Assembly: GCA_965227295.1 (NCBI GenBank)
Contig: OZ245742.1
Location: 1,472,001-1,536,000 of the forward strand
Direction: 5' to 3'
DNA from: Leptonemataceae bacterium
GTDB lineage: Bacteria; Spirochaetota; Leptospiria; Leptospirales; Leptonemataceae
DNA length: 64,000 nt
Below are positions 1,578 through 63,563 of the stretch, piece after piece. The notes under the pieces are model-generated. The model made no database searches and had not been told where the DNA came from. It saw nothing but the letters and a program-made list of their open reading frames with translations. Within the stretch, counting starts at the first letter, position 1, and each line of letters begins with the position of its first letter. The position numbers and the translations under genes are program-made.

Positions 1578-1609
1578 GCAGGGTAACTGAAGCTTAGCGG
1601 ATATTAGTA

Positions 1610-2578
1610 ATGCAAGTCTCACTCATTATACCCGTCTACAACGAAGAAGATAACCTGGACGAGCTGTATGGCGAAATCCAGGAACTCTGGAAGGCTTATA
1701 AAAAGCACACGCTGCTTGAACTGATCTTTGTGAACGACGGGAGCCTGGACGGCTCACTGAAAAAGCTCAAAGAGTTGACGAAGAAGGATCGCAAGATCAA
1801 GGTCGTGAACTTCTGGCGCAATTACGGCCAGACCGCAGCACTGTCCGCGGGAATCGATGCGTCACGAGGTGACATCATCCTGTTGATGGATGCGGATTTG
1901 CAGAATGATCCCAACGATATTCCGAAGCTTATCGAAAAGCTGGAACAGGGCTACGAGGTCGCCTCGGGCTGGCGCAAGCATCGCCAGGATAATTCGCTTA
2001 CGCGAACCTTTCCGTCACGCATCGCCAACTGGCTCATCTCGCTGATCTCCAGGGTGAGCCTGCATGACTTCGGTTGCACGCTGAAGGCTTACCGCCGCGA
2101 CGCTCTCGAAGGCGTGCGCCTTTATGGCGAGATGCACCGTTTCATTCCCGTGTTCGCCAGCTGGCAGGGCGCGCGCGTGGCCGAGGTGATCGTGAATCAC
2201 CGGCCGCGCATTCACGGCGTTTCGAAGTACGGCCTGGAGCGGACGGTCAAGGTCTTCCTGGATCTGATCCTGATCGCCTTCATGCATAAGTTTTTGCACC
2301 GGCCCATGCACGCCTTCGGCGGCATCGGTGTGATCGGCATGGTGCTTTCGGTAGCCACATTCATATGGGCGATCATCTGGAAGTTCGAAGGCGTTTCGTT
2401 CATTGAGTCGCCGCTGTTAATATTTTCGACGACCTTCTTTTTGTTCGGAGCGACTTCGATTCTCATGGGACTCCTCGCCGAGATGTTGATGCGCACCTAC
2501 TTCGAAAGTCAGAACAAACATACGTATCGCGTGAAAGAAGTGCTAAACGGCGGCGGGCGATCCAGGAAAAAAGCCTGA
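1610..2578 (+). CDS. GT2 glycosyltransferase (ArnC/polyprenol-phosphate type) with C-terminal TM helices
   Basis: IIPVYNE, VNDGS.D, RNYGQTAAL, MDADLQNDP, GEMHRFIP; two hydrophobic C-terminal segments. Confidence 0.88.
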   Translation: MQVSLIIPVYNEEDNLDELYGEIQELWKAYKKHTLLELIFVNDGSLDGSLKKLKELTKKDRKIKVVNFWRNYGQTAALSAGIDASRGDIILLMDADLQNDPNDIPKLIEKLEQGYEVASGWRKHRQDNSLTRTFPSRIANWLISLISRVSLHDFGCTLKAYRRDALEGVRLYGEMHRFIPVFASWQGARVAEVIVNHRPRIHGVSKYGLERTVKVFLDLILIAFMHKFLHRPMHAFGGIGVIGMVLSVATFIWAIIWKFEGVSFIESPLLIFSTTFFLFGATSILMGLLAEMLMRTYFESQNKHTYRVKEVLNGGGRSRKKA

Positions 2579-2591
2579 ACGCGTTAGGGCA

Positions 2592-3743
2592 TTGAATATC
2601 CTTTTAATCAACTACGAGTATCCGCCCATCGGCGGCGGCGCCGCAAACGCGTGCTGGTTTTTGGCCAGGGAGCTGGCCTCGATGAAACATCGAGTATGCG
2701 TGCTGACTTCGGCCTACGAAGATCTGCGCGGCCTCGCAGAAGACGAAAATGGAGTCACGGTCTTACGCGTGCCCGCGTTTCGCAGGCGCAAAGATCGTGG
2801 CAGTATTTTGCAGATGGTCGCGTTTGTTTTTTTTGCGAATCTGAAGCTACTCGGTCTTGCGAAAAATTTTGAGATAGAGAGGTCGATAGCTTTTTTTACA
2901 ATCCCCTGCGGCCCGCTTGCGCTTCGTTTGAAGCGCCGACGGGAGATCGACTACGTTGTATCCCTGCGCGGGGGAGACGTTCCCGGTCATGTTCCCCGGG
3001 TGAACGCATTCCATCGTCTGATTCGCGGCGTTCGTCGTCGTTCGCTCAAGTACGCAAAGGCCATCGTGGCCAACGGAGAGGGGCTCGCAAAGTCTTCCGA
3101 GGCCGCGGACCCGTTTCCGGTGCACATTATACCGAACGGCGTGGATACGGATTTCTTTCATCCGCCCGAAGAGCGAAATGCGTCGGGAACCGCCGACGGG
3201 CTAACTTTATTTCAGTGCCTCTTTGTGGGGCGGTTGCATCCGGAAAAGAATCTGCCGTTCTTTTTTCGGGCCGCGGCGCCCCTGATTTCGGAGCTGAAAG
3301 GCGAGGGCATTCAGTTCCAACTGCATCTTGTCGGCGACGGTTCGGACCGGGCCGTGCTTGCACGACTCGCCGATGAGCTGCAACTGGAAGTTACGTTCCA
3401 CGGCTGGTGCGAGCGGGAATCCACGGCGCGTCTATACCGTGAAGCGGATTGTTTGATCAATCCCTCGCTCTACGAAGGGATGGCGAACGTGGTGCTGGAA
3501 GGCATGGCGTCGGCCTTGCCGGTCCTCGCCAGCGATGTCCCGGGAAACGCCGGGTTGGTGCGTGAGAATTCGGACGGGCTTCTGTTTGCGCTGCATGACG
3601 AAGTGGACTTGCGTGAAAAATTGGGCGCCCTGGCGCGGGATGCCGGACTCCGTCGACGCCTGGGTGCGAACGGCCGCCGCCGGGTCGTCGAAGAATTTTC
3701 CTGGCGCAGCGTGGCGGAGGGCTATCTAAAGCTGCTTCAGTAA
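2592..3743 (+). CDS. GT4 glycosyltransferase
   Basis: NYEYPPIGGGA, IPNGVD, FVGRL, PSLYEGMANVVLEGMA (E-X7-E). Confidence 0.88.
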   Translation: MNILLINYEYPPIGGGAANACWFLARELASMKHRVCVLTSAYEDLRGLAEDENGVTVLRVPAFRRRKDRGSILQMVAFVFFANLKLLGLAKNFEIERSIAFFTIPCGPLALRLKRRREIDYVVSLRGGDVPGHVPRVNAFHRLIRGVRRRSLKYAKAIVANGEGLAKSSEAADPFPVHIIPNGVDTDFFHPPEERNASGTADGLTLFQCLFVGRLHPEKNLPFFFRAAAPLISELKGEGIQFQLHLVGDGSDRAVLARLADELQLEVTFHGWCERESTARLYREADCLINPSLYEGMANVVLEGMASALPVLASDVPGNAGLVRENSDGLLFALHDEVDLREKLGALARDAGLRRRLGANGRRRVVEEFSWRSVAEGYLKLLQ

Positions 3744-3760
3744 GTATTTGCGGCGAGGTG

Positions 3761-4513
3761 TTAGTCTGCGTTCAGCCAGTACAGTCGACACGAACGCCGC
3801 GCCGCGATGCGCCCCGCGGGAATGCTTTCATCGCCGTCGAGCATGCGCCGAATCATGGCTGCTTTACCACTGCCTTTCAAAAGGAACCAGACCTGCTGCG
3901 CCGCTTCGATCACGGGGTAGTTGATGGTCAGACGCACCTGGTTGTCCTCCGGGCGCCGGGTTACCGCGGTAAGTTCGCTGCCGGTTTCCTGGCCGGGAAA
4001 GAGAGAAGCGGTGTGACCGTCGTGATCCCCCAGGCCGAGGAGGATCAACGGGAACGTCGGAAAGAGGGCGGAAGCCGAAGGCTGTCGGCGCAGCGGCAGA
4101 TGAGCCGCCAGGGACTGAGACATCATGGCGGCCGCGCGTTCCGGGTCGCCGGGATCGTTGTCCGGCGAACTGACCTGCTCCGGATCGCGCCAGCCGTGAA
4201 TGAACGGTGACGAGGGACGTAGCTCCGGCGGCCGAATGATTTGCGCCAGCGCGGTTTCGTTGCGATCGGAATGGCCGAGGGGTACCCAGCGCTCATCGCC
4301 GATCCACCAGCGCACCCCGGCAAGGGCGGGCGCAGGGGATTCGTAGTCCGCGGCCACACGCTGGAAGAAGGGCACCGGGGAGTTTCCGCCGGGAACGGCG
4401 ACGTGAAAGGTTCCGTAAGATTGTTCCTGTACCGCGGCGACAAAATCACGAAAAACATCTTCCAGCCAGGCCCCGGCGCTGTCGTATTCCTTGAGTTCGC
4501 TGCTTCGACTCAT
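3761..4513 (-). CDS. pgl: 6-phosphogluconolactonase
   Basis: PGGNSP, GDERWVP..HSDRN, LGLG.DGHTASLFPG, RLT.....I, G..KA motifs. Confidence 0.82.
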   Translation of the reverse strand: MSRSSELKEYDSAGAWLEDVFRDFVAAVQEQSYGTFHVAVPGGNSPVPFFQRVAADYESPAPALAGVRWWIGDERWVPLGHSDRNETALAQIIRPPELRPSSPFIHGWRDPEQVSSPDNDPGDPERAAAMMSQSLAAHLPLRRQPSASALFPTFPLILLGLGDHDGHTASLFPGQETGSELTAVTRRPEDNQVRLTINYPVIEAAQQVWFLLKGSGKAAMIRRMLDGDESIPAGRIAARRSCRLYWLNAD

Positions 4514-4615: not shown

Positions 4616-6544
4616 ATGTGTGGTATCGCCGGCTTTATTGATCCCGGAATGCGTGGTTCGCAGGCGGAATTCGCGGCTGTTATGAACCGCATGACCGACG
4701 CGATTGCGCACCGCGGCCCGGACGGCTCCGGGGTCTGGAGCGATCCGGAGCGCGGCGTATGCCTGGGACACCGGCGTCTGTCCATCATCGACATTGCCGG
4801 CGGGTCGCAGCCGATGGCTTCCAGCGACGGAGAGCTGATCGTCGTTTTTAACGGAGAGATCTACAATCACGCCGAACTGCGCGACGAATTGATCGCGAAG
4901 GGTCATCGTTTTCAATCGCACCATTCCGATACCGAAGTGCTGCTTTACGGCTGGCGCGAGTGGGGCGAGTCCATGGCCGATCGTTTGAACGGCATGTGGG
5001 CCTTTGCGATCTATGATCGCAAGCACGGTATCGTTCATCTGAGTCGGGACCGTTTCGGGCAGAAGCCGTTTTACTATACGTATCAGAACGGTGTCTTTGC
5101 GTTCGCGTCCGAGCTGAGCGGCATTGAGGCCTTTGCGAAGTCCAGCGAGTCCGTGGCCACGTCGCTTTCGCCCCGGGCGGTGCAGAAGTTCTTCGCCTAC
5201 GGTTACGTACCCGCTCCGCTGTCGCTCTACGAGGGCGTGTACAAACTTCCGGGCGGTCATTGTTTGTCCTTCGAAGTGCGGGAGGCCTCGTTTCGTATCC
5301 GTAAGTGGTGGGACTTCGTCCTGGAACCATTCGCGGGCGGTGAGATTCCGAGAAAAGCCGAAGAAGAATGGGGCGCCGAGATTCGCCGCCTGCTGGATCA
5401 GTCCGTGCGTCGGCGCATGATGTCCGACGTTCCCCTGGGGGTCTTTCTGTCCGGCGGCATCGACAGCTCGGCGATTACGGCCTTTGCTGCCAGGCACGTG
5501 GATGCCGGCAAGTTGGAGACGTTCTGCATTGGATTTGAAGAGGCCTCGTTCGACGAATCGCAGTACGCCCGGGACACGGCGCAACTCTTCGGCACGAAAC
5601 ATCACGATGACGTGCTCTCTATGGAAGGGGCGAGTCCGCTCTTAGCTGAGATTGCGAGTAAGTTAGACGAACCCCTGGGAGATTCCTCGCTGCTGCCGAC
5701 GTACCTGCTCTGCCGGTTTACGCGGCAGCGCGTAACGGTGGCTCTCGGCGGGGACGGCGGCGATGAACTCTTCGCCGGATACGACCCCTTCCGCGCGTTG
5801 CGCTACGCCAATCTCTACAAGACGCTGTTGCCCGCGCCGGTGCACGCCGGTGTGCGCATGCTGATGGCCCGGTTGCCGGTGTCCCACCGGAACATGAGCC
5901 TCGATTTTAAGATCAAGCGGACGCTGCGCGGCATCGGTTACAGGCGCCAGTTCTGGCTGCCCGTCTGGATGGGACCGCTGGATCCCGGCGGCGTGAGCGA
6001 TCTTCTGGATGAACCGGTGGACCTGGAAGATCTCTACTCCGAGGCGATTGAACAGTGGGACGCGTGTCAGAGTAAAGATATAGTAGATAAAACTTTGCAA
6101 TTTTATACGAAGCTCTACTTACAGGACGACATCCTCGTGAAAGTCGACCGTGCGTCCATGATGGTTTCTCTCGAGGCGCGGTCGCCGTTTCTGGACATTG
6201 ATCTCATTAACTTCGTGCGTCGTATTCCCTCGAACTACAAACTTCGCGGCGGGGTCACTAAGTACATCTTGAAGAAGGCGCTGGAACCGGTGTTGCCTGA
6301 GAGTATTCTGTATCGTGCCAAGAAGGGCTTCGGCGTTCCGGTGGGGCGCTGGTTCCGTGACGGTGTGCTGAACGTCGATCCGCAAAGCATGCCCGCGCCG
6401 GTGCAGGCGGATTTCGTGCGCGGGCTGAACGAACGTCATAAACAAAACAAGAGCGACGAGCGCGCCGCGTTGTGGAACGCCTGGTTGCTCGGTGAGTTTC
6501 AGAAGCGTGGTCGCAGTGTGGCGGTGCGGAGTACGGTGTCGTGA
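4616..6544 (+). CDS. asnB: Asparagine synthase-like glutamine amidotransferase (polysaccharide amidation type)
   Basis: MCGIAG start (catalytic Cys2) at 4616, HRGPD, GHRRLSIID, FNGEIYN, LSGGIDS, GGDELFAGY, KVDRASM..SLEARSPFLD. Confidence 0.92.
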   Translation: MCGIAGFIDPGMRGSQAEFAAVMNRMTDAIAHRGPDGSGVWSDPERGVCLGHRRLSIIDIAGGSQPMASSDGELIVVFNGEIYNHAELRDELIAKGHRFQSHHSDTEVLLYGWREWGESMADRLNGMWAFAIYDRKHGIVHLSRDRFGQKPFYYTYQNGVFAFASELSGIEAFAKSSESVATSLSPRAVQKFFAYGYVPAPLSLYEGVYKLPGGHCLSFEVREASFRIRKWWDFVLEPFAGGEIPRKAEEEWGAEIRRLLDQSVRRRMMSDVPLGVFLSGGIDSSAITAFAARHVDAGKLETFCIGFEEASFDESQYARDTAQLFGTKHHDDVLSMEGASPLLAEIASKLDEPLGDSSLLPTYLLCRFTRQRVTVALGGDGGDELFAGYDPFRALRYANLYKTLLPAPVHAGVRMLMARLPVSHRNMSLDFKIKRTLRGIGYRRQFWLPVWMGPLDPGGVSDLLDEPVDLEDLYSEAIEQWDACQSKDIVDKTLQFYTKLYLQDDILVKVDRASMMVSLEARSPFLDIDLINFVRRIPSNYKLRGGVTKYILKKALEPVLPESILYRAKKGFGVPVGRWFRDGVLNVDPQSMPAPVQADFVRGLNERHKQNKSDERAALWNAWLLGEFQKRGRSVAVRSTVS

Positions 6545-9124: not shown

Positions 9125-10276
9125 ATGACTGATACCTCACGACGTACTATCGCCTGTGTCACCGGAACCCGGGCGGACTATCCGCGGGTGAAGTCCGTGC
9201 TGCGGGAAATCGTCGCACGGCCGAACCTGGACCTTCGCTTGATCGTGACCGGTGCGCATCTTTCGAAGGCGTTCGGTTACACGATCACCGAGATCGAAGC
9301 GGACGGTTTTGAGATCGCGGAAAAGTTCGAAATCTACGATGAAGACGATACGCCCTACGGAATGGCGAAAGCCGCGGCCCGCTGCGCCGAGGGTACGGCT
9401 CACGCTCTGAAACGGATCGATCCGGATATTGTGTTGATCACCGTCGATCGCATGGAGACCCTGGCGGCGACGCAGTCCGCGGCGCTCATGAACTTCCCCA
9501 TCGCCCACGTTCAGGGCGGCGAGGTCACCGGTACCATCGACGAAAGCATTCGTCATGCAGTGACGAAACTTTCGCACATTCACTTTCCGGCTTCGCCCGA
9601 CGCCGCCGAACGTATCGTAAAGATGGGCGAGGACCCGCGGCACGTCCACCAGGTCGGCTGTCCGTATCTCGACATCATTACCGGGCTGGAGTACAAGAGC
9701 AAGGCCGAGATGGCCGCGAAGTACGGCTTCGATGCGGACAAACCGCTCGTCTTGTTTACGCAGCATCCGGTGACCACGGAGTTCGGCGAGGGCGGTGAGC
9801 AGGTAAAGAAAACCATCGAGGCGCTGAACGGTTTCCCGGACGTCGAGGTCTTCGCACTCTACTCGAACACCGACGCCGGCGGCCGGGAGATCGTCGAGAT
9901 CATGAAGCAGCAATCACGATATAAGATTTTTCCGAACATTGATTCGGCCGACTTTTTGAACATTATGAAGCACGCGGACCTCATGCTCGGCAATTCTTCG
10001 GCGGGTATTCGTGAGGCGCCGAGTTTCGAGCTCCCCGTGGTCAACGTCGGTTCGCGTCAGCAAGGCCGCGAACGCGCGGCGAACGTGATCGACGTGCCGC
10101 ACGAGGTCGGCGCCATTCGCGAAGCGATTCGGAAGGGATTGTCGAAGCCGTTTCGGGATTCTCTTAAGGGTGTTGTCAATCCCTACGGCGACGGTAAGTC
10201 CGCGAAACGAATCGTGGACATCCTGGAATCCGTTACGATTGATCGCGACCTGGTGCAAAAAATCATTCACTACTAA
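9125..10276 (+). CDS. neuC: UDP-N-acetylglucosamine 2-epimerase (hydrolysing, NeuC family) #1
   Basis: TGTRADY, HVQGGEVTGTIDESIRHAVTKLSHIHF, QHPVT, GNSSAGI.EAP, YGDGKSA.RI. Confidence 0.88.
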   Translation: MTDTSRRTIACVTGTRADYPRVKSVLREIVARPNLDLRLIVTGAHLSKAFGYTITEIEADGFEIAEKFEIYDEDDTPYGMAKAAARCAEGTAHALKRIDPDIVLITVDRMETLAATQSAALMNFPIAHVQGGEVTGTIDESIRHAVTKLSHIHFPASPDAAERIVKMGEDPRHVHQVGCPYLDIITGLEYKSKAEMAAKYGFDADKPLVLFTQHPVTTEFGEGGEQVKKTIEALNGFPDVEVFALYSNTDAGGREIVEIMKQQSRYKIFPNIDSADFLNIMKHADLMLGNSSAGIREAPSFELPVVNVGSRQQGRERAANVIDVPHEVGAIREAIRKGLSKPFRDSLKGVVNPYGDGKSAKRIVDILESVTIDRDLVQKIIHY

Positions 10277-10282
10277 CTTCAT

Positions 10283-11317
10283 ATGAGCTACGATTACAAG
10301 TCCATTCTGGTGACCGGCGGCGCCGGTTGCATCGGCATGCAGGTGTGCGCGGAACTGAGGCGCCGCGGTGCGAAGGTCCGTCTGTTTGATTTGCCGGAGC
10401 AGATTTCCCGCGTGCGGGAGTTTATTCCGGAAGATGTCGACATCTACTACGGTTCGATCCTCGACATGTCTTCCCTGCGCGACGGTATGGCCGGCTGTGA
10501 CGCGGTGATTCACCTTGCCGCGTACCTCGGTGTGATGCGCACGGAAACGAATCGCCTGCGGTGTCTGGATATCAACATGACGGGCACGCGCAACGTCCTC
10601 GACTGCGCCGTGCAGCATCGCGTGGAGAAGATCGTCTTCGCATCCTCCTCGGAAGTCTACGGCGAGCCCGTCGAAAATCCGGTGCGAGAAACGACTCTGA
10701 CCCAGGGCAAGACGGTCTACGCCGTAAGTAAACTTGCCGGGGAAGAACTCTGCAAGGCCTACAGTCAGCGCTATCCGCACCTTAAACATACCGTGTTGCG
10801 CTACTTCAACGCTTACGGTCCGTATCAAATTACACAATTCGTCATTCCGAAATTCGTCTACAACGTGCAGCACGATCGGCCGCCCATTATCTACGGCACC
10901 GGTGAGCAAATGCGTTCGTTTTGTTATTCCAGCGATACTGCCAGAGGGACCGTGGACGCCCTCTACAAACCTGAGGCGGACGGGCAGACCATCAATATCG
11001 GCAACAGCGAGTCCCTGGTCTCGCTGAAGGACCTGGCGAAACTCGTCATTGAGGTCGGCGGCAAAGAGGGCAAGATCGAAGCTGTCATCAATACCGAGTT
11101 TTCGAAGACGGACCGCGAAGAAAGTCGGGAGATCCATCGCCGCTACTGCGACACTTCCCTGGCGCTGAACCTGCTGGATTTTCGGCCGCGGGTCTCACTG
11201 CGCGACGGCATTGCGAACGTTTTTTCCGAGGGGCGCCTCTTTGACCGCTGGGAATCCAGCGACATTAAGTACACCCTCGACGAATGGATCGAAGACGACG
11301 GCGGCAACGATCGCTAA
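10283..11317 (+). CDS. NAD-dependent epimerase/dehydratase
   Basis: TGGAGCIG, HLAA, SSSEVYG, YAVSK, LRYFNAYGP. Confidence 0.88.
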   Translation: MSYDYKSILVTGGAGCIGMQVCAELRRRGAKVRLFDLPEQISRVREFIPEDVDIYYGSILDMSSLRDGMAGCDAVIHLAAYLGVMRTETNRLRCLDINMTGTRNVLDCAVQHRVEKIVFASSSEVYGEPVENPVRETTLTQGKTVYAVSKLAGEELCKAYSQRYPHLKHTVLRYFNAYGPYQITQFVIPKFVYNVQHDRPPIIYGTGEQMRSFCYSSDTARGTVDALYKPEADGQTINIGNSESLVSLKDLAKLVIEVGGKEGKIEAVINTEFSKTDREESREIHRRYCDTSLALNLLDFRPRVSLRDGIANVFSEGRLFDRWESSDIKYTLDEWIEDDGGNDR

Positions 11318-11338
11318 AGTTCTTCGACTATAACTTAG
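11314..11338. promoter_or_regulatory. Perfect CTAA-N17-TTAG copy of the dispersed palindromic motif, spanning a stop codon and ending next to the following start
   Basis: ctaa agttcttcgactataac ttag; function unknown. Confidence 0.6.
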
Positions 11339-11339: not shown

Positions 11340-12926
11340 ATGAAAGCTCTTTTTGTAAGCCAGAGCAATTCGCTGCGGCTGTTTTTCGATCTTTACCGCG
11401 ATATGCACGGGGCCGGTAAGATCGAAGCTTGCGGATTCTACGTTTCCGGCTCGGATTTCTACCGGAAGTTCGAGCACCGGGAGGCTCTGGATCAATTGCC
11501 GCTCTTGAAAGAGTGGGAGATCCTGGAGAGGGCTTCGCAGCGCAGCCCCGACCTCGACAAACTCAGAGTGTATGAGGAACGTTACGAGGATGTGACGCTC
11601 TGGCGAGCCTTAAATGCGGATCGGCGTATTTACTTCGGACGGGACGCGACATTCATCCAGGACTATCCGGCGCGGTTCGGACACGATCGTATGCTCGCGA
11701 TTCTTCAGACCGCCGTCGAAGACATCGAAGACTTCTTCGATCGTGTGCAGCCGGATTTCGTGGCGTCGTTTATTTGCGTCACCCTCGGCGAGTACCTCAT
11801 CTATCTCGTCGCGAAACGACGCGGCGTTCCCGTGGTCAACATGCGTCCGACGCGCCTGCGGAATTACTTCTTCGGAGGCGAGACGATTTTCGAGCCGTCC
11901 CTGGACTTACAATCAGAGTACGAGAAGTTGTTAAGAGACGGCTTGCCGGAGATGCAGCGCGAAGACCTTGAGGCTTATCTGGAAGGCGTGCGCGGCAGCC
12001 ACGCCATGTACGAGGGGGTGATGCCGGTTTCCGCCGTATATCGTGCCCGCATCTTCGCAGCGATCGGCGGATTGATCAGGAGCGGCTTTCGTTTTCTGGC
12101 GCACATCCCGGCGCTCATTAGAGAATGGTACGCTTATTCGTTTGGAGAGTATCGCCATGACAACAGCCACGTCCCGCGCACCCGACTCTCGCGCTTTCTT
12201 TTGATTCTGAAACCCTACCGACGTTTGGCGGAGCGCCGCGCCCTGAACCGGCACTACGCCGCGGTAAACAAGCTTCCGGCGGGCAGCTTCGTCTTTTATC
12301 CGCTGCATAAGGAGCCGGAACAAACCATGCAGGTCTACAGCCGGCCGTTTCAGAATCAGATCGAAGTCATTCGCAATCTTGCTCTGAATCTGCCCGTCAG
12401 TATGCGGTTGGTCGTCAAAGAACATCCGGTATCCGTAGGCTATCGACCGTTAACTTTCTATAAAAAGATATTAGCCATCCCCAATGTGATGATGGCCGCT
12501 CCGGAGACTAAAAGCAGCGCGCTCATCGAAAAAGCGAAGCTCGTGGCGGTGATCAGCGGTTCCGGCGCCCTGGAAGCGATTATGATGCGTAAACCCGCGT
12601 TGCACCTGGGGCGAGTCCCGTTTTCCATGCTGCCGGATTCCATGATCTCTCGGGCGGTGGACCTGTTTGAACTCGGCGAACTCATGCGCCGTATGATGCA
12701 TGAGCACAGTCACGACGAGGAAGCGTTGCTTGCTTATCTGGCCGCCGTGCAGAATCTTTCCGTTTCCGTAGATTGGTATACGCGCCTGCTGGGACGCGGC
12801 GAGGGTTTTCGCTTCGGCAACGGAAAGGAAAGCGCGGAAGAGTCGCGGGCAGCGCGCGCACAACAGATTCGCGATCTCGGAGATTACATATTGCGTCGGG
12901 CCGGCGTCAACAATGTGAGCGTTTGA
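11340..12926 (+). CDS. Putative capsule-biosynthesis (KpsS/Capsule_synth-like) glycosyltransferase
   Basis: FYPLHKEPE, VVKEHP, VISGSGALEA in the C-terminal domain; located beside neuBAC. Confidence 0.6.
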   Translation: MKALFVSQSNSLRLFFDLYRDMHGAGKIEACGFYVSGSDFYRKFEHREALDQLPLLKEWEILERASQRSPDLDKLRVYEERYEDVTLWRALNADRRIYFGRDATFIQDYPARFGHDRMLAILQTAVEDIEDFFDRVQPDFVASFICVTLGEYLIYLVAKRRGVPVVNMRPTRLRNYFFGGETIFEPSLDLQSEYEKLLRDGLPEMQREDLEAYLEGVRGSHAMYEGVMPVSAVYRARIFAAIGGLIRSGFRFLAHIPALIREWYAYSFGEYRHDNSHVPRTRLSRFLLILKPYRRLAERRALNRHYAAVNKLPAGSFVFYPLHKEPEQTMQVYSRPFQNQIEVIRNLALNLPVSMRLVVKEHPVSVGYRPLTFYKKILAIPNVMMAAPETKSSALIEKAKLVAVISGSGALEAIMMRKPALHLGRVPFSMLPDSMISRAVDLFELGELMRRMMHEHSHDEEALLAYLAAVQNLSVSVDWYTRLLGRGEGFRFGNGKESAEESRAARAQQIRDLGDYILRRAGVNNVSV

Positions 12927-17433: not shown

Positions 17434-17451
17434 GTAGAAGTTAGAGAGCTT

Positions 17452-18201
17452 ATGCTGAAGTCCAGGCTGAAAAACAACGAGCAAACCATCGGATCCTGGG
17501 TCACGCTGGCGCATCCGCTCGTGCCCGAACTGCTGGCCCACGGCGGTTACGACTGGCTCTGTGTGGATCTGGAGCACAGCTCCATCGAACTCGGGGATCT
17601 CCTGCCGTTGCTCATTTCCATCGAAGCGAAGGGCATGGTTCCCCTGGTGCGCGTCGGTGAGAACGATGCGAATTTGATCAAACGCGTCATGGACGCCGGT
17701 GCTCACGGCGTGATCGTGGCGAACGTGCGCACGCCCGACGAAGCGAAGCGAGCCGTCAGCGCGGTGAAGTATCCCCCCAAAGGCAGGCGCGGTGTCGGTT
17801 TGTACCGCGCCCAGGACTACGGTCGGCGTTTCGATGACTACATTCGCTGGATGGAAGACGAGAGCGTGGTCATCGTGCAGATCGAACATATCGACGCCGT
17901 CGAGCATATCGACGATATCCTGAGCGTGGACGGGGTGGACGCGTTTATGATCGGGCCGTACGATCTTTCGGGTTCTCTGGGGATGCCCGGTAAATTAGAC
18001 GCACCAGAAGTTAGCGGGGCTGTCGAGCGCGTGCTGGAAGCGGGCCGCCGCCTGGGTGTGCCCGCCGGGTATCATGCCGTGCAACCGCAGCCGGACCTGG
18101 CCCGTTCGTGCATGGAACGCGGCTTTCGTTTCCTGGCCTACAGCACCGATGCGATCCTCCTGAGCACAGCCGCGGCTAAATCTATGGAGGGTCTGCGCTG
18201 A
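17452..18201 (+). CDS. HpcH/HpaI-family class II pyruvate aldolase
   Basis: DWLCVDLEHS, PLVRV, KRVMDAGA.G, YPPKGRRG, QIEH, IGPYDLS.S.G. Confidence 0.88.
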   Translation: MLKSRLKNNEQTIGSWVTLAHPLVPELLAHGGYDWLCVDLEHSSIELGDLLPLLISIEAKGMVPLVRVGENDANLIKRVMDAGAHGVIVANVRTPDEAKRAVSAVKYPPKGRRGVGLYRAQDYGRRFDDYIRWMEDESVVIVQIEHIDAVEHIDDILSVDGVDAFMIGPYDLSGSLGMPGKLDAPEVSGAVERVLEAGRRLGVPAGYHAVQPQPDLARSCMERGFRFLAYSTDAILLSTAAAKSMEGLR

Positions 18202-41332: not shown

Positions 41333-41366
41333 AACACGGAATACTAACATCACACGAGTAATACTT

Positions 41367-46837: not shown

Positions 46838-46839
46838 GT

Positions 46840-48818: not shown

Positions 48819-48845
48819 AGCACTAACATATTGTAAAACAATCTT

Positions 48846-55293: not shown

Positions 55294-55524
55294 ACAACTT
55301 GCGGGAGATGCGGATAGTCGTTTTGCAAAGAGTGGTTACTTCGGCCCGGAACGCTGGTTAGAGGCTCCAGTGATTACGGCGAAGACGCCATTCCTGTCCG
55401 CGCCCCACATATCCCCCGCCCAACAACCGTGGTCGCCTGGAACCAGCCGTACCCATAAAAAGCTTAATCCACATTGGCCGCAACTTACCTCACAGTTCGG
55501 GGCGGCTACGAATATTGATAAGTT

Positions 55525-56826: not shown

Positions 56827-58113
56827 ATGAGTAGTTCTGAAAAATTCGCAGTGTTGGGTCTGGGCTACGTGGGCCTCCCCGTGGCGCTGGCCCTGGCCGA
56901 GCAGTTCGGCGACGTCGTCGGCTTCGACATCAGCAATGAGCGCATCCAGGAACTGAAGTCGGGACACGACCGTACCGGCGAGACGGAACCGGGAGAACTC
57001 GAGCGCAGTTCGCTGAAGTTCAGCGCAGACGCTGGCGATCTGAAGGACCGCACGTTCTACATCGTCACCGTACCGACGCCCATCGACGAGAACCGCCAGC
57101 CCCGCCTCGAACCGTTACGCAAAGCGTGCGAGCTCATCGGGCCGTTGCTGCAAAAGGGCGACCTGGTCGTCTTCGAATCTACGGTCTATCCCGGGCTCAC
57201 CGAGGAGATTTGCGGGCCGTGGCTGGAGCGGCACGCGAATCTTAAGGCCGGCACGGACTTTAAACTGGGCTACGCTCCGGAGCGCATGAATCCGGGGGAC
57301 AAAGAACATACGTTGCAGAAGATCATTCGTGTGGTGGCCGGCCAGGATGCGGAAACCCTGGAGCGGGTCGCGCGGGTGTACGACGCGATCGTTCCCGCGG
57401 GAGTTCACAGGGCGACTTCCATCCGCGTGGCCGAGGCGGCGAAGGTCATCGAGAACACCCAGCGCGACTTGAACATCGCGCTCATGAACGAACTCGCCGT
57501 AATATTCGATCGCCTTGGGTTAAGGACGAAGGACGTTCTCGACGCCGCGCGTACCAAGTGGAACTTCCTGCCGTTCTCGCCGGGCCTCGTCGGCGGTCAC
57601 TGCATCGGCGTGGACCCGTACTATTTAACCAGCAAAGCCGAGGCCGTCGGCTATCATCCTCAGGTCATCCTGGCCGGACGGCGCATTAATGATCACATGG
57701 GCGCGTTCGTGGCTCAGAAGCTTGTGAAGCTCATGATCGGTCGCAATCTTCCGGTGAAGGACGCGCGCGTGGGCGTGCTCGGACTGACGTTCAAGGAAAA
57801 CGTTCCCGACCTGCGCAACTCCCGCGTACCGGATATTCTGAACGAACTCAGGCAGTTCGGCATTGAACCCGCGGTGCACGATCCGCTGGCATCCATGGAA
57901 GAGGCGCGCCATGAGTACGATGTCGAACTTTCGGATTTCCGCAACTGGAGCGAGCTGGATGGTCTCATCCTCGCGGTACCGCACCGGGCCTACCTCGACA
58001 ACCTGGACGAACTTACGGGCGTCGTGAAAAAGGGCGGCGTGCTGATCGACGTGAAGTCCGTGCTGGAACCGGGTACCGGCCGCGAGCGCGAACTCGTGTA
58101 CTGGAGCCTCTGA
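56827..58113 (+). CDS. UDP-N-acetylhexosamine/nucleotide-sugar dehydrogenase (WbpO/TviB-like)
   Basis: GLGYVGLP, VPTP, ESTVYPG, PER.NPGD, AEAAKVIENTQRD.NIA, PGLVGGHCIGVDPYYL, FKEN.PDLRNS. Confidence 0.9.
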   Translation: MSSSEKFAVLGLGYVGLPVALALAEQFGDVVGFDISNERIQELKSGHDRTGETEPGELERSSLKFSADAGDLKDRTFYIVTVPTPIDENRQPRLEPLRKACELIGPLLQKGDLVVFESTVYPGLTEEICGPWLERHANLKAGTDFKLGYAPERMNPGDKEHTLQKIIRVVAGQDAETLERVARVYDAIVPAGVHRATSIRVAEAAKVIENTQRDLNIALMNELAVIFDRLGLRTKDVLDAARTKWNFLPFSPGLVGGHCIGVDPYYLTSKAEAVGYHPQVILAGRRINDHMGAFVAQKLVKLMIGRNLPVKDARVGVLGLTFKENVPDLRNSRVPDILNELRQFGIEPAVHDPLASMEEARHEYDVELSDFRNWSELDGLILAVPHRAYLDNLDELTGVVKKGGVLIDVKSVLEPGTGRERELVYWSL

Positions 58114-58149: not shown

Positions 58150-59169
58150 ATGAAAAAAGTCTTACTCACCGGCACGGCTGGATTCATCGGCTTTCATTTT
58201 TGCCGGCGTCTGCTGGATGAGGGCTACGCCGTCGTCGGCTTCGACAGTGTCAACGACTACTACGATGTTAACTTAAAGCGGGCGCGCCTTAAGAAAATTG
58301 CCGAACACGAGCATGCCTCCCGTTTTTTGCAGATCGAAGCGGATCTGGGAGATCGTGGGGCCGTAGAACGGGCCTTTGCCGATCACAAACCGGACCTCGT
58401 CGTAAACCTGGCGGCCCAGGCCGGTGTGCGCTACTCGCTCACAAATCCGCACGCATACACGCATTCGAACATCACGGGTTTTCTGAATATTCTCGAAGGC
58501 TGTCGCCACGGCAACGTGGAGCACCTGGTCTTCGCGTCCTCGTCTTCGGTCTACGGCGCGAATAAAAGCATGCCGTTTTCGATCCACGATAACATCGATC
58601 ATCCGCTGAGTTTGTACGCCGCGAGTAAGAAAGCCAACGAACTCATGGCCCACAGCTACTCGCATCTCTACAATCTGCCCGTGACCGGTTTGCGTTTTTT
58701 TACCGTCTACGGCCCCTGGGGCCGGCCGGACATGGCGATGTTTCTGTTTATGAAGGCCATCCTCGAAGATCGACCCATCGACGTCTTCAATCATGGCAAC
58801 ATGATGCGCGACTTTACATACATTGACGACATCGTCGAGGGCATCTTTAGGGTGATGCGCAACACGGCCGCACCGAATCCCGACTGGTCCGGAGAGAATC
58901 CGGATCCCGGGACGGGCAAGGGGCCGTATCGTATTTATAACATCGGCAACAACAAACCCGTGAAGCTGATGTACATGATCGAGGTGCTGGAAAAGTGCCT
59001 GGGCAAAACCGCCGAGAAGAACATGCTGCCCATGCAACCCGGCGACGTGCCCGAGACCTACGCCGACATTGACGACCTGGTGCGGGACGTGGGCTTTCAA
59101 CCATCCACGCCGATCGAAACGGGCATTGAACGATTTGTGGCCTGGTATCGTGAGTTTTACGGGATGTAA
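58150..59169 (+). CDS. UDP-glucuronate 4-epimerase-like (CapI/WbnF) NAD epimerase
   Basis: TG.AGFIGFH, NLAAQAGVRYS, ASSSSVYG, YAASKK.NE, RFFTVYGPWGRPDMA, MQPGDV. Confidence 0.9.
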   Translation: MKKVLLTGTAGFIGFHFCRRLLDEGYAVVGFDSVNDYYDVNLKRARLKKIAEHEHASRFLQIEADLGDRGAVERAFADHKPDLVVNLAAQAGVRYSLTNPHAYTHSNITGFLNILEGCRHGNVEHLVFASSSSVYGANKSMPFSIHDNIDHPLSLYAASKKANELMAHSYSHLYNLPVTGLRFFTVYGPWGRPDMAMFLFMKAILEDRPIDVFNHGNMMRDFTYIDDIVEGIFRVMRNTAAPNPDWSGENPDPGTGKGPYRIYNIGNNKPVKLMYMIEVLEKCLGKTAEKNMLPMQPGDVPETYADIDDLVRDVGFQPSTPIETGIERFVAWYREFYGM

Positions 59170-61467: not shown

Positions 61468-61506
61468 TTTCTTGAGTGCTGCTGACTGACATTTAGTGGA
61501 AATCTC

Positions 61507-62640
61507 TTGTCAAAAGAAGTCCGTAACATCGTATACATCATTGATTCCCTGGGCCGCGGCGGAAGCCAGGCGATCTTAAAAGATCTTACCGCCGGCCTCG
61601 GCGAAACCGGGCGTTACGAACAACTCGTTCTGGGACTCAACGACGAGTACAGCGACGAGATCGTAGAGGCTATGCGCCGGCACGCGCGGGTGCGGGTCGT
61701 CGGCAAACTTGCGTTGCTATTGGGTTACGGATTGTGGTCGGTATTTAGGGCCTGTCGTCAGGCGGATATCGTCGTGACTTATCTGCCGCGTTCGGATATC
61801 GTCGGCCGGTTGCTTGCCTGGCTGGCCCGGACGCCTGTAATCGTAACGACGATCCACGCGCGGAACATCAACAAACATTGGTGGGAGTTTTTCCTGGATC
61901 GCTTAACGATGCCCATTGCCCGGCGCGTCATTTTCAACAGCAGCTCCGTGATCCCGTTCGCCGTCGAGCACGAGGGCGTACGCGAGGAGCGGGCCGTGTA
62001 CATTCCCAACGGCATTCGCATCAACGGCGCGGTACATGAAAGTTTTCAGAGAGAGTTCTTAAGGATATATCCCGGAAAGTTAAGGATCGGCAGCGCCGGG
62101 CGTCTGGTTCCGCAAAAGGCTTTCCCGGTTTTGCTGAGAGCATTTGCGCGGATCGCCATGGATCGTCCGGATCTGCGGCTGTATCTGGCTGGCCGGGGCC
62201 CCCTGGAACAAGAACTGCGGGCCCTCGCCGACGAACTGGGCATTGCGGATCGAATGTACTTTGTCGGGTCGATACCCATGGATGATATTGTTTCCTTTCT
62301 GGATCTCCTCGACGTCTACGTGCAGTCATCGGATTTCGAAGGCATGTCCGTGGCGCTCATGCAGGCCATGGACAGCGGTTCCGCGGCGGTGGCCACCCGG
62401 GTGGACGGAACGCTGGAGGTCATTCGGGAGGACGGTGATTGCGGTCGTCTGGTAGATCCGGGAGACGTAGCCGGTCTTGCGGATGCTATGGAGGAACTGT
62501 GTGATGACCCGAAGCGCCGACGTCGTATCGCCGAGGCCGGTCGCGCACGCATACGCGACGAGTTTTCGCTGGAGTTGATGATTCGCCGTCACGACGAACT
62601 CTTTCGCGAATTGTGGATGCGGCACGGGAGAGCTGCGTGA
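61507..62640 (+). CDS. GT4 glycosyltransferase
   Basis: GGSQ, IPNG, GRL.PQK, S.FEGMSVALMQAM (second Glu replaced by Gln). Confidence 0.85.
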   Translation: MSKEVRNIVYIIDSLGRGGSQAILKDLTAGLGETGRYEQLVLGLNDEYSDEIVEAMRRHARVRVVGKLALLLGYGLWSVFRACRQADIVVTYLPRSDIVGRLLAWLARTPVIVTTIHARNINKHWWEFFLDRLTMPIARRVIFNSSSVIPFAVEHEGVREERAVYIPNGIRINGAVHESFQREFLRIYPGKLRIGSAGRLVPQKAFPVLLRAFARIAMDRPDLRLYLAGRGPLEQELRALADELGIADRMYFVGSIPMDDIVSFLDLLDVYVQSSDFEGMSVALMQAMDSGSAAVATRVDGTLEVIREDGDCGRLVDPGDVAGLADAMEELCDDPKRRRRIAEAGRARIRDEFSLELMIRRHDELFRELWMRHGRAA

Positions 62641-63563
62641 GCCAGGAGCGCGTCGTCGTACTCGGCGCGGCCGGTTACCTGGGACGTCCGCTGGTGAGCG
62701 CCCTGGCGGCAAGGGGCTACGACGTGCGGGCCTTTGATCGTCTGAAGCCGACGGATGCCGGCGACAAAGGGGAGTGGATCAGCGGTGACTTTTTTAACGA
62801 AACGCATCTATGCGAGGCTCTGCGTGAACGAGACGTCGTCTACCACCTCATTGCCACGCGATTGCCGGCACCGTCCAATGAAGACCCCCTGGCGGACGCA
62901 GCGGAGAATATCGTCGGCTCGCTGCGCTTGTTAAACCTGTGCGTTGCGGAAGGCGTTAAAAGGATCGTTTTTGTTTCTTCGGGCGGCGGGATCTACGGTA
63001 ATATTCAGGCAGAGTATCTTAGCGAAGATCTGAACGTTCGGCCGGTTTGTGCCTACGGAATATCCAAACTGGCTGTCGAGAAATACCTGGCGCTTTATCA
63101 TCATTTGCATGGAATGCAGTATTGCGCCTTACGCGTCGGTAATCCCTACGGCGGGGAGCAGCGTCTGGATCGTCCTCAGGGCCTCGTAACTCAGAGCCTC
63201 GCGAAGGCCCTGCGCGATGAGGCCGTAGAAATCTGGGGTGACGGTAGCGTCGTTCGTGATTTTTTGCACATCGACGATGTGGTGGAGGCGCTACTGCGCG
63301 CGATGCATTACGCAGGCGAGGCGAGAGTGATGAACGTCGCCAGCGGGATCGGCCGTAGTGTGAACGAGGTGCTCGACGCCGTCGACGCTGTGCTCGGACG
63401 TAAGCTGCGGCGTAAGTATTTGCCCGGCCGGCCGGCGGATGCCCGACGTGTGGTGCTGGACTGTTCCCTGGCGGAGCGAGAGTTGCACTGGCGTGCCGGG
63501 GTCGAATTTGAAGACGGTCTGCGCCGCAGCGCTGAAGAGATGCGGGCACGGATTTCCGGTTAA
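62637..63563 (+). CDS. NAD-dependent epimerase/dehydratase
   Basis: GAAGYLG, SSGG.IYG, YGISK, LR..NPYG, IWGDGSVVRDF. Confidence 0.85.
   Translation: MSQERVVVLGAAGYLGRPLVSALAARGYDVRAFDRLKPTDAGDKGEWISGDFFNETHLCEALRERDVVYHLIATRLPAPSNEDPLADAAENIVGSLRLLNLCVAEGVKRIVFVSSGGGIYGNIQAEYLSEDLNVRPVCAYGISKLAVEKYLALYHHLHGMQYCALRVGNPYGGEQRLDRPQGLVTQSLAKALRDEAVEIWGDGSVVRDFLHIDDVVEALLRAMHYAGEARVMNVASGIGRSVNEVLDAVDAVLGRKLRRKYLPGRPADARRVVLDCSLAERELHWRAGVEFEDGLRRSAEEMRARISG

What the first reader, a model, noticed from the sequence alone, without database searches (positions are those of the whole stretch)
1583..63022. Dispersed palindrome TAA-N17-TTA (consensus about CTAAC-N15-GTTAG) repeated 30 times across the locus
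SEEN: TAA and TTA are rare in this GC-rich DNA, yet they pair at one fixed spacing. Exact TAA-N17-TTA sites (position of the first T, hand scan, some may be missed): 1584, 3741, 10274, 11315, 12451, 17421, 17991, 19368, 19886, 22107, 23414, 26395, 27660, 30456, 31441, 32886, 35365, 35644, 41345, 42094, 42395, 44886, 46835, 48824, 52693, 55465, 57500, 58269, 62060, 62999. One-mismatch sites include 1094, 5643, 13688, 22298, 28285, 29796, 32517, 37176 and 63561. Other spacers (14, 16, 18, 19) gave only a handful each. Flank preferences are mirror-symmetric: C follows TAA in 15/30, G precedes TTA in 13/30, and A precedes TAA in only 1/30. The spacer is not self-complementary. My rough chance expectation is 1-2 sites (not computed). 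INFERENCE: half-sites two helical turns apart suggest a site for a dimeric dsDNA-binding protein that marks a >60-kb operon about every 2 kb. Possible roles are locus-wide silencing or anti-silencing, looping, processivity support or recombination. I do not recognise this motif from any described system.
Basis: partly seen in the sequence, partly recalled or inferred. Interest (0 to 1): 0.92.

Follow-up and report, generated by a model that had tools for sequence, protein, structure and literature searches.

The report
Genome-wide TAA-N17-TTA dyad motif
The TAA-N17-TTA palindrome is real, but it does not mark this sugar-gene cluster: it is a hyper-abundant motif spread over the whole chromosome of one spirochaete genus, most likely the site of an unidentified two-fold symmetric DNA-binding factor.

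Summary
Other spacings give 0-12, and codon-preserving shuffles give 5.0 +/- 1.9.

Locus specificity is refuted.
- The 5.94-Mb genome has 2,547 such sites (about 12x over same-phase spacings; mean 27 per 64 kb) and a weaker k=18 class (672).
- Sites are spread evenly and Poisson-like around the chromosome.

Properties of the motif:
- Recognition is sharp: TAA 11.4x, TAG 4.5x, AAA 1.9x (mostly overlap with the k=18 class), other single changes 0.8-1.0x.
- Weaker preferences run across all 23 bp, in intergenic and coding sites alike.
- The two halves do not covary, so it is not a hairpin.
- Sites arise by point substitution: only 4 of 45 are shared with a congener at about 71% DNA identity.
- They avoid promoter regions and gene 5' ends and are scarce in atypical low-GC genes.
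- Enrichment is confined to this genus: 17.6x here, about 3x in two congeners, about 1x in 18 other relatives, and no clear outlier in a 300-genome phylum sample.

Type I restriction, the methyltransferases found, EbfC-type sites and RNA structure do not explain it. ComEA was not found. The binding factor is unidentified.

The parts
1584..1606 (.). exact TAA-N17-TTA site; intergenic between genes 624-1577 and 1610-2578
   Evidence: gene limits from my own crude gene caller
3741..3763 (.). exact site; its TAA is the stop codon of gene 2592-3743
10274..10296 (.). exact site; its TAA is the stop codon of the gene ending at 10276, and the site spans the start of gene 10283-11317
11315..11337 (.). 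exact site; its TAA is the stop codon of gene 10283-11317; the site ends 2 nt before the ATG at 11340
12451..12473 (.). exact site inside CDS 11340-12926
17421..17443 (.). exact site overlapping the 3' end of CDS 15928-17433
17991..18013 (.). exact site inside CDS 17452-18201
19368..19390 (.). exact site inside CDS 19186-20193
19886..19908 (.). exact site inside CDS 19186-20193
22107..22129 (.). exact site near the 3' end of CDS 21067-22149
23414..23436 (.). exact site near the 3' end of CDS 22146-23444
26395..26417 (.). exact site; its TAA is the stop codon of gene 25135-26397; the site covers the start at 26412
27660..27682 (.). exact site inside CDS 27398-28279
30456..30478 (.). exact site at the 5' end of the NeuB-family CDS 30443-31513
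31441..31463 (.). exact site inside CDS 30443-31513
32886..32908 (.). exact site inside CDS 32098-33828
35365..35387 (.). exact site inside CDS 34523-35596
35644..35666 (.). exact site at the 5' end of CDS 35619-36563
41345..41367 (.). exact site, intergenic; its last A is the A of the ATG at 41367
42094..42116 (.). exact site inside CDS 41367-42431
42395..42417 (.). exact site near the 3' end of CDS 41367-42431
44886..44908 (.). exact site bridging the junction between genes 42867-44867 and 44891-45874
46835..46857 (.). exact site; its TAA is the stop codon of gene 45896-46837; the site covers the start at 46840
48824..48846 (.). exact site, intergenic; its last A is the A of the ATG at 48846
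52693..52715 (.). exact site inside CDS 51881-53359
55465..55487 (.). exact site, intergenic; lies inside the window's one copy of the 235-copy dispersed repeat
57500..57522 (.). exact site inside the UDP-glucose dehydrogenase CDS 56851-58113
58269..58291 (.). exact site inside CDS 58150-59169
62060..62082 (.). exact site inside CDS 61507-62640
62999..63021 (.). exact site inside CDS 62637-63563
1094..1116 (.). tolerated variant TAA-N17-CTA
5643..5665 (.). tolerated variant TAG-N17-TTA
13688..13710 (.). tolerated variant TAA-N17-CTA
28285..28307 (.). tolerated variant TAG-N17-TTA
29796..29818 (.). tolerated variant TAG-N17-TTA
32517..32539 (.). tolerated variant TAA-N17-CTA
37176..37198 (.). 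tolerated variant TAG-N17-TTA
63561..63583 (.). tolerated variant TAA-N17-CTA
55382..55503 (-). the window's copy (78% identity over 126 aligned columns) of the conserved core of a non-coding dispersed repeat with 235 copies in this genome; it carries site 55465

Best explanation
TAA-N17-TTA is the core of a dyad-symmetric recognition site of about 23-25 bp, roughly B-TAA-B-T-T-n-C-R-n-T-S-A-n-Y-G-n-A-A-V-TTA-V. It is read as double-stranded DNA by a sequence-specific factor with two-fold symmetry. That factor would be a dimer with widely spaced reading heads, or a tetramer of the NikR type, and it is peculiar to this spirochaete genus.

The site is a chromosome-wide signature, not a gene-regulatory operator and not a mark of this locus. 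There are about 2,340 excess exact sites, about 670 excess TAG/CTA variants and about 460 excess k=18 sites. Together that is roughly one per 1.7 kb.

Sites are created in place by point substitutions wherever the cost is low:
- downstream intergenic DNA
- operon junctions, where a TAA stop codon or the A of an ATG supplies part of a half-site
- variable parts of genes

They are kept out of promoter regions and gene 5' ends. They build up with residence time, so atypical low-GC genes carry few.

Shown: the anatomy, specificity, distribution, mode of origin and phyletic range. Inferred: that a protein binds the site, and that weak selection for a chromosome-level role maintains the class. That role could be nucleoid organisation or recognition of resident DNA.

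The window's polysaccharide locus carries the motif at about the normal genomic density.
For: Strength and uniqueness of the signal:
- It is the strongest spaced trinucleotide-pair signal in the genome: 2,547 observed against 202 expected from same-phase spacings, Z = 164.
- Spacing is tolerant to +1 (k=18: 672 against 208) but not to -1 (k=16: 160).

Specificity and symmetry:
- TAA is 11.4x enriched and TAG 4.5x. Other single substitutions are 0.8-1.0x, apart from AAA at 1.9x, which largely reflects overlap with the k=18 class.
- The double variant TAG...CTA is only 1.5x. One weak half is tolerated, as expected for cooperative two-half binding.
- Mutual information between the halves is nil, e.g. 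positions 3/19 give C-G 370, G-C 198, G-G 332, C-C 323.

DNA-level constraint:
- The same non-core preferences appear in 500 wholly intergenic and 1,771 wholly coding sites.
1,053 of 7,882 in-frame TTA codons (13.4%) belong to sites.

Origin by substitution:
- Of 45 G000 sites in regions alignable to G001, 4 are shared and 29 align without gaps.
- Of 17 G001 sites in aligned regions, 4 are shared.

Avoidance pattern, sites per kb: convergent intergenic 1.29, tandem 0.98, divergent 0.37, CDS 0.36.
- Enrichment over control pairs is 3.4x in divergent regions and 3.5-4x in tandem intergenic regions longer than 120 bp.
- It is 10-21x at short (0-60 bp) operon junctions and 16.7x in CDS.
- The first ~200 bp of genes hold about half the density of the 3' parts.

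Residence-time signature: enrichment is 3.7-7.6x in the lowest-GC genes and 23-36x in GC-rich genes.

One specificity across the genus:
- k17/k20 counts are 2547/145, 647/212 and 756/233 in G000, G001 and G002. The other 18 relatives are near 1, though G007 (88/68) and G012 (8/14) have too few sites to judge.
- G000's non-core matrix scores G001 k=17 sites at 0.33 against -3.75 for controls (p = 6e-7). G002 scores 1.46 against -3.15 (p = 0.003).

Internal constraint: in a 235-copy repeat the six core bases are 0.93-1.00 conserved, against a spacer mean of 0.82. 187 of the 213 copies covering the motif are intact.
Against: - No binding protein was identified. The genes behind 9 of the best promoter-side sites are unrelated and none is a DNA-binding protein.
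- Individual sites are not conserved beyond the neutral expectation: 4 of 45 against about 0.13 expected at 71% identity. The sample is small. This fits interchangeable, weakly selected sites, but it fits a neutral drive equally well.
- A 12x excess of an exact motif is unusual for known nucleoid proteins. This comparison is recalled, not tested.
- G000 has about five times the excess of its congeners, and that is unexplained.
- Gene positions come from my own crude codon-usage gene caller. The start-related statistics are therefore approximate.
Confidence: 0.5

Rival explanations
1. Uptake-signal-like molecular drive. The motif is preferred by a DNA-uptake or recombination machinery, so alleles that gain it spread by transformation, as with DUS and USS.
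For: The behaviour matches what Findlay & Redfield 2009 report for uptake sequences (PMC2817400, abstract read):
- thousands of copies in coding and non-coding DNA
- accumulation after genes arrive (few in atypical genes)
- location in poorly conserved, gapped sequence (16 of 45 sites against a 20% background, p = 0.014)

Sites turn over between species, and the motif is clade-specific. ComEC, DprA and a PilM-like protein are encoded.
Against: - No ComEA-type DNA receptor was found in this closed genome with two models, PF12836 and TIGR00426.
- ComEC and DprA are common in bacteria that are not transformable (recalled).
- Known uptake signals are contiguous and asymmetric, not a bipartite dyad (recalled).
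- Avoidance of promoters and gene 5' ends suggests that something occupies the sites in the cell. Constraint alone could also give this pattern.
Confidence: 0.15
2. A by-product of DNA modification or biased repair, as proposed for HIP1 in cyanobacteria. A methyltransferase or mismatch-nicking activity tied to the motif would steadily convert near-cognate sequences into it.
For: - Recognition is enzyme-like in its sharpness, and near-cognate single mismatches are slightly depleted at 0.8-1.0x.
- HIP1 is a precedent for a hyper-abundant palindrome linked to orphan methyltransferases (PMC4390886, search listing only; PMC5861425, abstract).
- G000 encodes beta-class N6/N4 methyltransferases.
Against: - No HsdS (PF01420), no HsdM-type (PF02384) and no Dam-type (PF02086) gene was found.
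- The Type III Mod (626 aa, beside ResIII) was found only in G000, not in G001 or G002, which share the motif.
- The stand-alone 376-aa methyltransferase has orthologues at 55-58% identity in G004, G006 and G007 and a partial match in G008, and none of these genomes is enriched.
- The motif has no cytosine in its core, so a deamination-repair route of the Vsr kind does not apply (inference).
Confidence: 0.1
3. One reading: a locus-specific mark of the >60-kb polysaccharide operon, serving silencing, anti-silencing, looping or processivity.
For: The window has 34 sites among 58 complete genes, 57 of them on the + strand. About a dozen sites touch gene junctions.
Against: - The genome-wide mean is 27.4 per 64-kb bin and the maximum is 48. 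The window is ordinary.
- 72% of sites lie in CDS.
- There is no fixed register with start codons. The only spike, at offset -1 (34 sites), is matched by the controls at the global ratio.
- Junction enrichment (10-21x) equals the general enrichment.
Confidence: 0.01
4. Spread of a mobile or repeated element (MITE, REP or IS) that carries the motif.
For: 589 of 2,547 sites share flanking sequence with another site. These include a 235-copy repeat and IS5-like transposase genes.
Against: - About 1,960 sites have unique contexts, against about 200 expected.
- Sites in conserved genes mostly align without gaps to a congener and differ by point substitutions at the core bases.
- A 23-bp insertion would break reading frames.
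Confidence: 0.03
5. An RNA-level element, such as a hairpin, terminator or processing site, or a promoter (-35/-10 pair with a 17-bp spacer).
For: The spacing of 17 equals the optimal sigma-70 spacer. Many window sites lie between genes.
Against: - The halves do not covary.
- The pattern is its own reverse complement and lies mostly inside genes, in genes on either strand.
- Sites are least enriched exactly where promoters lie.
Confidence: 0.02

Closest known systems
DNA uptake sequences (DUS of Neisseriaceae, USS of Pasteurellaceae)
   Same: - Thousands of copies, about one per 1-2 kb, in coding and non-coding DNA.
- Clade-specific.
- Accumulate after genes are acquired.
- Prefer poorly conserved positions and measurably distort codon or peptide usage.

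Sources: PMC2817400, abstract.
   Different: - Known uptake signals are contiguous 9-12-mers without dyad symmetry (recalled). This motif is a bipartite dyad with 17 unspecified-to-weakly-specified bases.
- No ComEA was found.
- Competence of this organism is unknown.
HIP1, the highly iterated palindrome GCGATCGC of cyanobacteria
   Same: - A hyper-abundant palindrome found within and between genes.
- No peptide, RNA or gene-regulatory role.
- Lineage-specific, and its function has been debated for decades.

Source: PMC5861425, abstract.
   Different: - HIP1 is a contiguous GC-rich octamer that contains methyltransferase sites.
- Its sites are conserved between genomes and periodically spaced (same abstract).
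- Here sites are not conserved beyond the neutral expectation (4 of 45).
- Spacing here is Poisson-like with no significant periodicity.
- No methyltransferase tracks the motif.
NikR-type operators (GTATGA-N16-TCATAC)
   Same: A dyad with short half-sites about two helical turns apart, read by a symmetric oligomer. The operator sequence comes from a passage in PMC7055735; the tetramer architecture is recalled.
   Different: A NikR operator is a single regulatory site in a promoter. This motif has thousands of copies, avoids promoters, and also shows preferences at its centre. No NikR homologue was sought.
Repeats that carry host-factor sites (REP/BIME/RIP elements of enterobacteria)
   Same: One 235-copy non-coding repeat in G000 carries the motif at a fixed, conserved position. 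This resembles repeats that carry IHF or gyrase sites (recalled).
   Different: REP-type elements are extragenic and form hairpins. About 1,960 of the sites here are unique, mostly intragenic and made by substitution.
EbfC/YbaB, a spirochaete nucleoid protein with the site GTnAC
   Same: A nucleoid-associated protein of spirochaetes with a short palindromic preference (PMC2665219, abstract start as shown in the search listing).
   Different: Only about 10% of half-sites read GTAAC or GTTAC (246 and 236 of 2,547). GT.AC-N15-GT.AC is barely enriched, at 52 against 27-48 for control spacings.

Membership tests
DNA uptake signal sequences (DUS/USS) | Genome-wide hyper-abundance in both coding and non-coding DNA of one clade | tested here: met
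   2,547 sites against about 200 expected; 72% in CDS; confined to the genus
DNA uptake signal sequences (DUS/USS) | Sequence-biased DNA uptake by naturally competent cells | not testable with these tools
   Needs an uptake or transformation assay
DNA uptake signal sequences (DUS/USS) | Complete competence machinery, including the periplasmic DNA receptor ComEA | tested here: not met
   ComEC, DprA and PilM_2 are present. No match to PF12836 or TIGR00426 in the closed genome. A divergent receptor cannot be excluded.
DNA uptake signal sequences (DUS/USS) | Contiguous asymmetric core of about 9-12 nt (recalled definition) | tested here: not met
   Bipartite dyad with 3 + 3 invariant bases and a 17-bp spacer
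HIP1-type highly iterated palindromes | Contiguous palindrome embedding the sites of orphan methyltransferases that co-occur with it | tested here: not met
   The motif is bipartite. No HsdS, HsdM or Dam genes were found. The two PF01555 enzymes do not track the motif.
HIP1-type highly iterated palindromes | Sites conserved between genomes (selection on individual sites) | tested here: not met
   4 of 45 G000 sites are shared with G001, about the neutral expectation at 71% identity. The sample is small.
HIP1-type highly iterated palindromes | Periodic chromosomal distribution (10-90 kb) | tested here: not met
   The top spectral peak (26,164) is below the 95th percentile of random placement (27,807). 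The spacing CV is 1.03.
Type I restriction-modification target | Bipartite site specified by HsdS together with HsdM | tested here: not met
   No PF01420 and no PF02384 match in the closed genome. Known spacers are 5-8 bp (recalled).
REP/MITE-type dispersed repeats | Inserted extragenic elements with hairpin potential | tested here: not met
   No covariation between halves. 72% of sites are intragenic. Most sites align without gaps and differ by point substitutions from the orthologous sequence.
Integron attC sites (considered because CTAAC...GTTAG resembles the R''/R' boxes; recalled) | Imperfect hairpin of about 55-140 nt between the two boxes, flanking gene cassettes | tested here: not met
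   The boxes are only 15 nt apart and the spacer is not self-complementary. Most sites are inside genes. An integron integrase was not sought.
Transcription-factor operator or regulon | Sites concentrated in promoters of functionally related genes | tested here: not met
   Enrichment is lowest in divergent and long intergenic regions. The genes behind 9 of the best promoter-side sites are unrelated.
EbfC/YbaB binding sites | GTnAC core | tested here: not met
   About 10% of half-sites fit. GT.AC-N15-GT.AC gives 52 against 27-48 at control spacings.

The most novel reading that the evidence does not exclude
A new class of hyper-abundant genome signature. It is a bipartite, two-turn dyad (TAA-N17-TTA) written about 3,000 times into the chromosome of one spirochaete genus by point substitution. 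It overrides codon preference and is maintained by a dedicated, still unknown symmetric DNA-binding factor that organises or identifies resident DNA. This would be a spaced counterpart of DUS/USS, HIP1 or Chi, and one that k-mer surveys cannot see.
Probability: 0.45. Interest if true: 0.75.

Novelty: new variant of a known kind. Interest (0 to 1): 0.6.

Why it matters
Only a handful of hyper-abundant, lineage-specific DNA words are known: uptake sequences, Chi, HIP1 and segregation-guiding motifs. Each has exposed a chromosome-level process. All of them are contiguous words found by k-mer counting.

A bipartite motif with only 3 + 3 invariant bases is invisible to such counts. Even so, it is the strongest spaced signal in this genome. 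It accounts for 13% of all in-frame TTA codons and shapes thousands of genes.

If a dedicated binding factor exists, the genus offers three things:
- a tractable natural system for how a sequence-specific nucleoid or self-recognition protein and its sites co-evolve
- three species carrying different loads of the same motif
- a reason to scan other genomes for spaced dyads

For the window itself the lesson is negative. The motif says nothing specific about the polysaccharide locus.

Tried and rejected
- **Taxon.** The search for related loci with a window protein found nothing. The taxon was therefore inferred from FlaA (4 matches, none in 14 control genomes) and from the make-up of the relatives.
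- **Earlier notes of this scan.** Nothing was found by words or by place.
- **Literature.** Six spellings of the motif gave 0 papers. A search on spaced dyad, over-represented, two helical turns and related terms listed 10 of 90 papers, and none describes such a motif by title or abstract start. Supplementary files were not consulted.
- **RNA evidence.** No RNA holder was listed. Only assembled DNA contigs of 2 runs from one study hold the stretch.
- **Hairpin or structured RNA.** No covariation in the motif. For the 235-copy repeat there was no Rfam match at E <= 0.1, and 0 of 16 predicted pairs showed compensatory changes among 80 sampled copies. The minus-strand part of that script crashed after the plus-strand result.
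- **Type I restriction-modification.** Rejected.
- **Methyltransferases.** Rejected as drivers.
- **EbfC-type GTnAC.** Rejected.
- **Register with start codons.** None beyond TTATG re-use.
- **Periodicity.** None.
- **Candidate binder from autoregulation logic.** The 9 proteins behind top promoter-side sites are DUF1554, an alpha/beta-hydrolase, a DksA-like protein, GrpE, a thioesterase, DJ-1/PfpI and 3 without a family. None is a DNA-binding candidate.
- **Tandem sites.** Sites 21 bp apart that share a TTAA occur 15 times. By a rough estimate of my own, about 6 would be expected, so I make nothing of it.
- **Three-way gain/loss dating.** Abandoned, because G002 is as distant from G000 (about 69% identity over 4 kb aligned of 63 kb fetched) as G001 is (about 71%).

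Full report
**1. The observation**

The window (G000:C1:1472001-1536000; the genome is 5.94 Mb, 59.8% G+C, one contig) contains 34 exact TAA-N17-TTA sites. Every other spacing from 0 to 60 gives 0-12.

I ran 300 shuffles that keep each gene's protein and the codon pool and permute intergenic bases. These give 5.0 +/- 1.9 at k=17 (maximum 11). The same-frame controls k=14 and k=20 have 3 and 0 sites.

**2. It is not a property of the locus**

Genome-wide there are 2,547 sites at k=17 and 672 at k=18, against 145-407 at the other spacings from 5 to 40. Per 64-kb bin the mean is 27.4 and the maximum is 48, so the window's 34 is unremarkable.

I compared all 4,096 trinucleotide pairs at spacings 0-45, each against spacings in the same codon phase, and ranked those at spacing 6 or more. 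TAA-N17-TTA is the top signal of the genome (2,547 against 202, Z = 164). The next signals (TAA-N18-TAA, CTA-N18-TTA, TAG-N17-TTA, TTA-N19-TAA) all place two TA steps 21 bp apart, and they are flank or one-mismatch versions of the same site.

Sites are spread evenly around the chromosome: 24-65 per full 100-kb bin, with no ori/ter pattern. Spacing is Poisson-like (CV 1.03) and there is no significant periodicity.

**3. Anatomy**

The averaged logo is a 23-25-bp dyad:
- not-A before TAA and not-A after it
- T at +4 and +5
- C (and not G) at +7, R at +8
- T-S-A at the centre
- the mirror image on the other side

The same preferences appear in 500 wholly intergenic sites and in 1,771 wholly coding sites. 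They are therefore read at the DNA level and are not a by-product of coding. Mutual information is confined to neighbouring bases. The two halves do not covary, so the site is not a hairpin.

Recognition is sharp. With the other half fixed, TAA is 11.4x enriched and TAG 4.5x. AAA is 1.9x, which largely reflects overlap with the k=18 class. All other single substitutions are 0.8-1.0x. The double variant TAG...CTA is only 1.5x.

**4. Where the sites lie**

I used a crude codon-usage gene caller of my own (4,666 genes, 86.5% coding).
- 72% of sites lie in CDS. Random TAA/TTA pairs at other spacings are 43-51% intergenic.
- 1,053 of 7,882 in-frame TTA codons (13.4%) are half-sites.

| Region | Sites per kb | Enrichment over control pairs |
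|---|---|---|
| Convergent intergenic | 1.29 | 6.9x |
| Tandem intergenic | 0.98 | 6.9x |
| Divergent intergenic | 0.37 | 3.4x |
| CDS | 0.36 | 16.7x |

The first ~200 bp of genes hold about half the density of the 3' parts. 176 sites use a stop codon as a half-site. This produces a peak of 202 site centres within 0-9 nt after stops.

Relative to start codons, the only spike is at offset -1 (34 sites, TTATG). It is matched by the controls at the global ratio, and otherwise the offsets are broad. Short operon junctions (0-60 bp) carry a site in 8-19% of cases, at 10-21x over control. Tandem intergenic regions longer than 120 bp show only 3.5-4x.

This explains the window. Its 58 complete genes (57 on the + strand) are tightly packed sugar-nucleotide and polysaccharide genes: NeuB x3, DegT, epimerases, asparagine synthase, radical SAM and UDP-glucose dehydrogenase. 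Five sites re-use a TAA stop and two re-use the A of an ATG.

**5. How the sites arise**

G001 is in the same genus, is syntenic, and is about 71% identical in alignable DNA. In 144 kb of best alignments, 4 of 45 G000 sites are shared, and these are the same 4 among the 17 G001 sites. 29 of the 45 align without gaps, and in these the differences fall on the TAA or TTA bases.

Sharing is about what six unconstrained bases would give at this divergence (0.71^6 = 0.13). The sites sit in gapped, variable stretches more often than chance: 16 of 45 against 20%, p = 0.014.

Enrichment is 3.7-7.6x in the lowest-GC genes, which are probably acquired, and 23-36x in GC-rich genes. The most codon-biased genes are somewhat poorer, at 0.25 sites per kb against 0.42.

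About 589 sites share flanks with another site. These include a 235-copy repeat, IS5-like transposase genes and small families. About 1,960 sites are unique.

**6. Phyletic range**

| Genome(s) | k=17 / k=20 |
|---|---|
| G000 | 2547 / 145 |
| G001 (same genus) | 647 / 212 |
| G002 (same genus) | 756 / 233 |
| G007 | 88 / 68 (too few to judge) |
| G012 | 8 / 14 (too few to judge) |
| other 16 relatives (11 other genera of the family, and a second family) | ratios 0.89-1.10 |

In a 300-genome sample of the phylum, only G000 has a high ratio to the tool's own control. The five next-highest gave k17/k20 = 1.04-1.10. A weak enrichment in AT-rich genomes could be hidden by their high background.

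G000's non-core matrix scores k=17 sites of G001 and G002 far above their control spacings (p = 6e-7 and 0.003). One specificity is therefore shared by the genus.

The organism is a spirochaete: FlaA has 4 matches here and none in the 14 control genomes.

**7. Mechanisms tested**

- Type I restriction-modification: no HsdS and no HsdM-type gene.
- Dam-type methyltransferase: none.
- Beta-class methyltransferases: a 626-aa Mod beside ResIII (Type III) occurs only in G000. A stand-alone 376-aa enzyme also occurs in unenriched genera. Neither tracks the motif.
- Uptake: ComEC, DprA and a PilM-like gene are present. ComEA was not found with two models.
- EbfC-type GTnAC: fits about 10% of half-sites only.
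- Regulon: the genes behind 9 top promoter-side sites are unrelated.
- RNA data: none are listed.

**8. Reading**

The features are these:
- a sharp dyad
- tolerance of one weak half
- tolerance of +1 bp but not -1 bp in the spacer
- continuous weak preferences across two turns
- avoidance of promoters and gene 5' ends
- build-up with residence time
- restriction to one genus

Together they fit a site for a genus-specific, two-fold symmetric, sequence-specific DNA-binding factor acting at the scale of the chromosome (confidence 0.5). A NikR-type operator (GTATGA-N16-TCATAC; passage in PMC7055735) shows that half-sites two turns apart can be read by one oligomer.

The population behaviour resembles uptake sequences (PMC2817400, abstract) more than HIP1 (PMC5861425, abstract). 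Without ComEA, I give the uptake reading 0.15 and a modification/repair drive 0.10.

The binder, the selective benefit and the five-fold higher load in G000 remain unknown.

**9. Novelty**

I found no description of this motif. Hyper-abundant genome words are a known kind of feature. A bipartite two-turn dyad of this abundance is, as far as these searches go, a new variant.

Its structural inference is retained.

Noticed in passing
window 55382-55503 (- strand); elsewhere e.g. G000:C1 508070, 508399, 508786 (tandem) and 298125, 298558: A non-coding dispersed and tandem repeat with 235 copies in G000. It has a conserved core of about 126 bp, then about 75 variable bp, then a second conserved part. 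It carries the motif at a fixed position: 187 of the 213 copies that cover the motif keep it intact. There is no convincing ORF, no Rfam match and no covariation. None was found in 400 kb of G001 or 63 kb of G002. Its nature is unknown.
   Followed up: partly
genome-wide (G000): A second spacing class, TAA-N18-TTA (672 against about 208 expected), has somewhat different flanks (G before TAA, C after TTA, inner T/A pairs shifted by one). There is no excess at k=16 (160). I did not establish whether this is the same factor binding with a stretched spacer.
   Followed up: partly
G000:C1:2843501-2848000 (L110): A Type III restriction-modification pair (626-aa Mod with PF01555, and a ResIII helicase) lies next to a UvrD_C/PD-(D/E)XK (AddB-like or Cas4-like) nuclease gene. 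With this query, the Mod was found in G000 but not in its two congeners.
   Followed up: partly
G000, e.g. C1:39097, 1846063, 2780206, 4560957, 5237234, 5697870: At least six copies of an IS5-like transposase gene carry a motif instance inside the coding sequence. A 9-copy and a 6-copy REP-like family also contain CTAAC...GTTAG-type instances.
   Followed up: no
window 30443-31513, 32098-33828, 59209-61467: Three NeuB-family (nonulosonic acid synthase) genes lie in one co-directional cluster. One is fused to a cytidylyltransferase domain and one to a TIM-barrel (AP_endonuc_2) domain. This suggests that more than one nonulosonic-acid pathway is encoded in the locus.
   Followed up: no
G000 compared with G001 and G002: The three species placed in one genus share only about 69-71% nucleotide identity in alignable genes while keeping synteny. 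G000 carries about five times the motif excess of the other two.
   Followed up: partly
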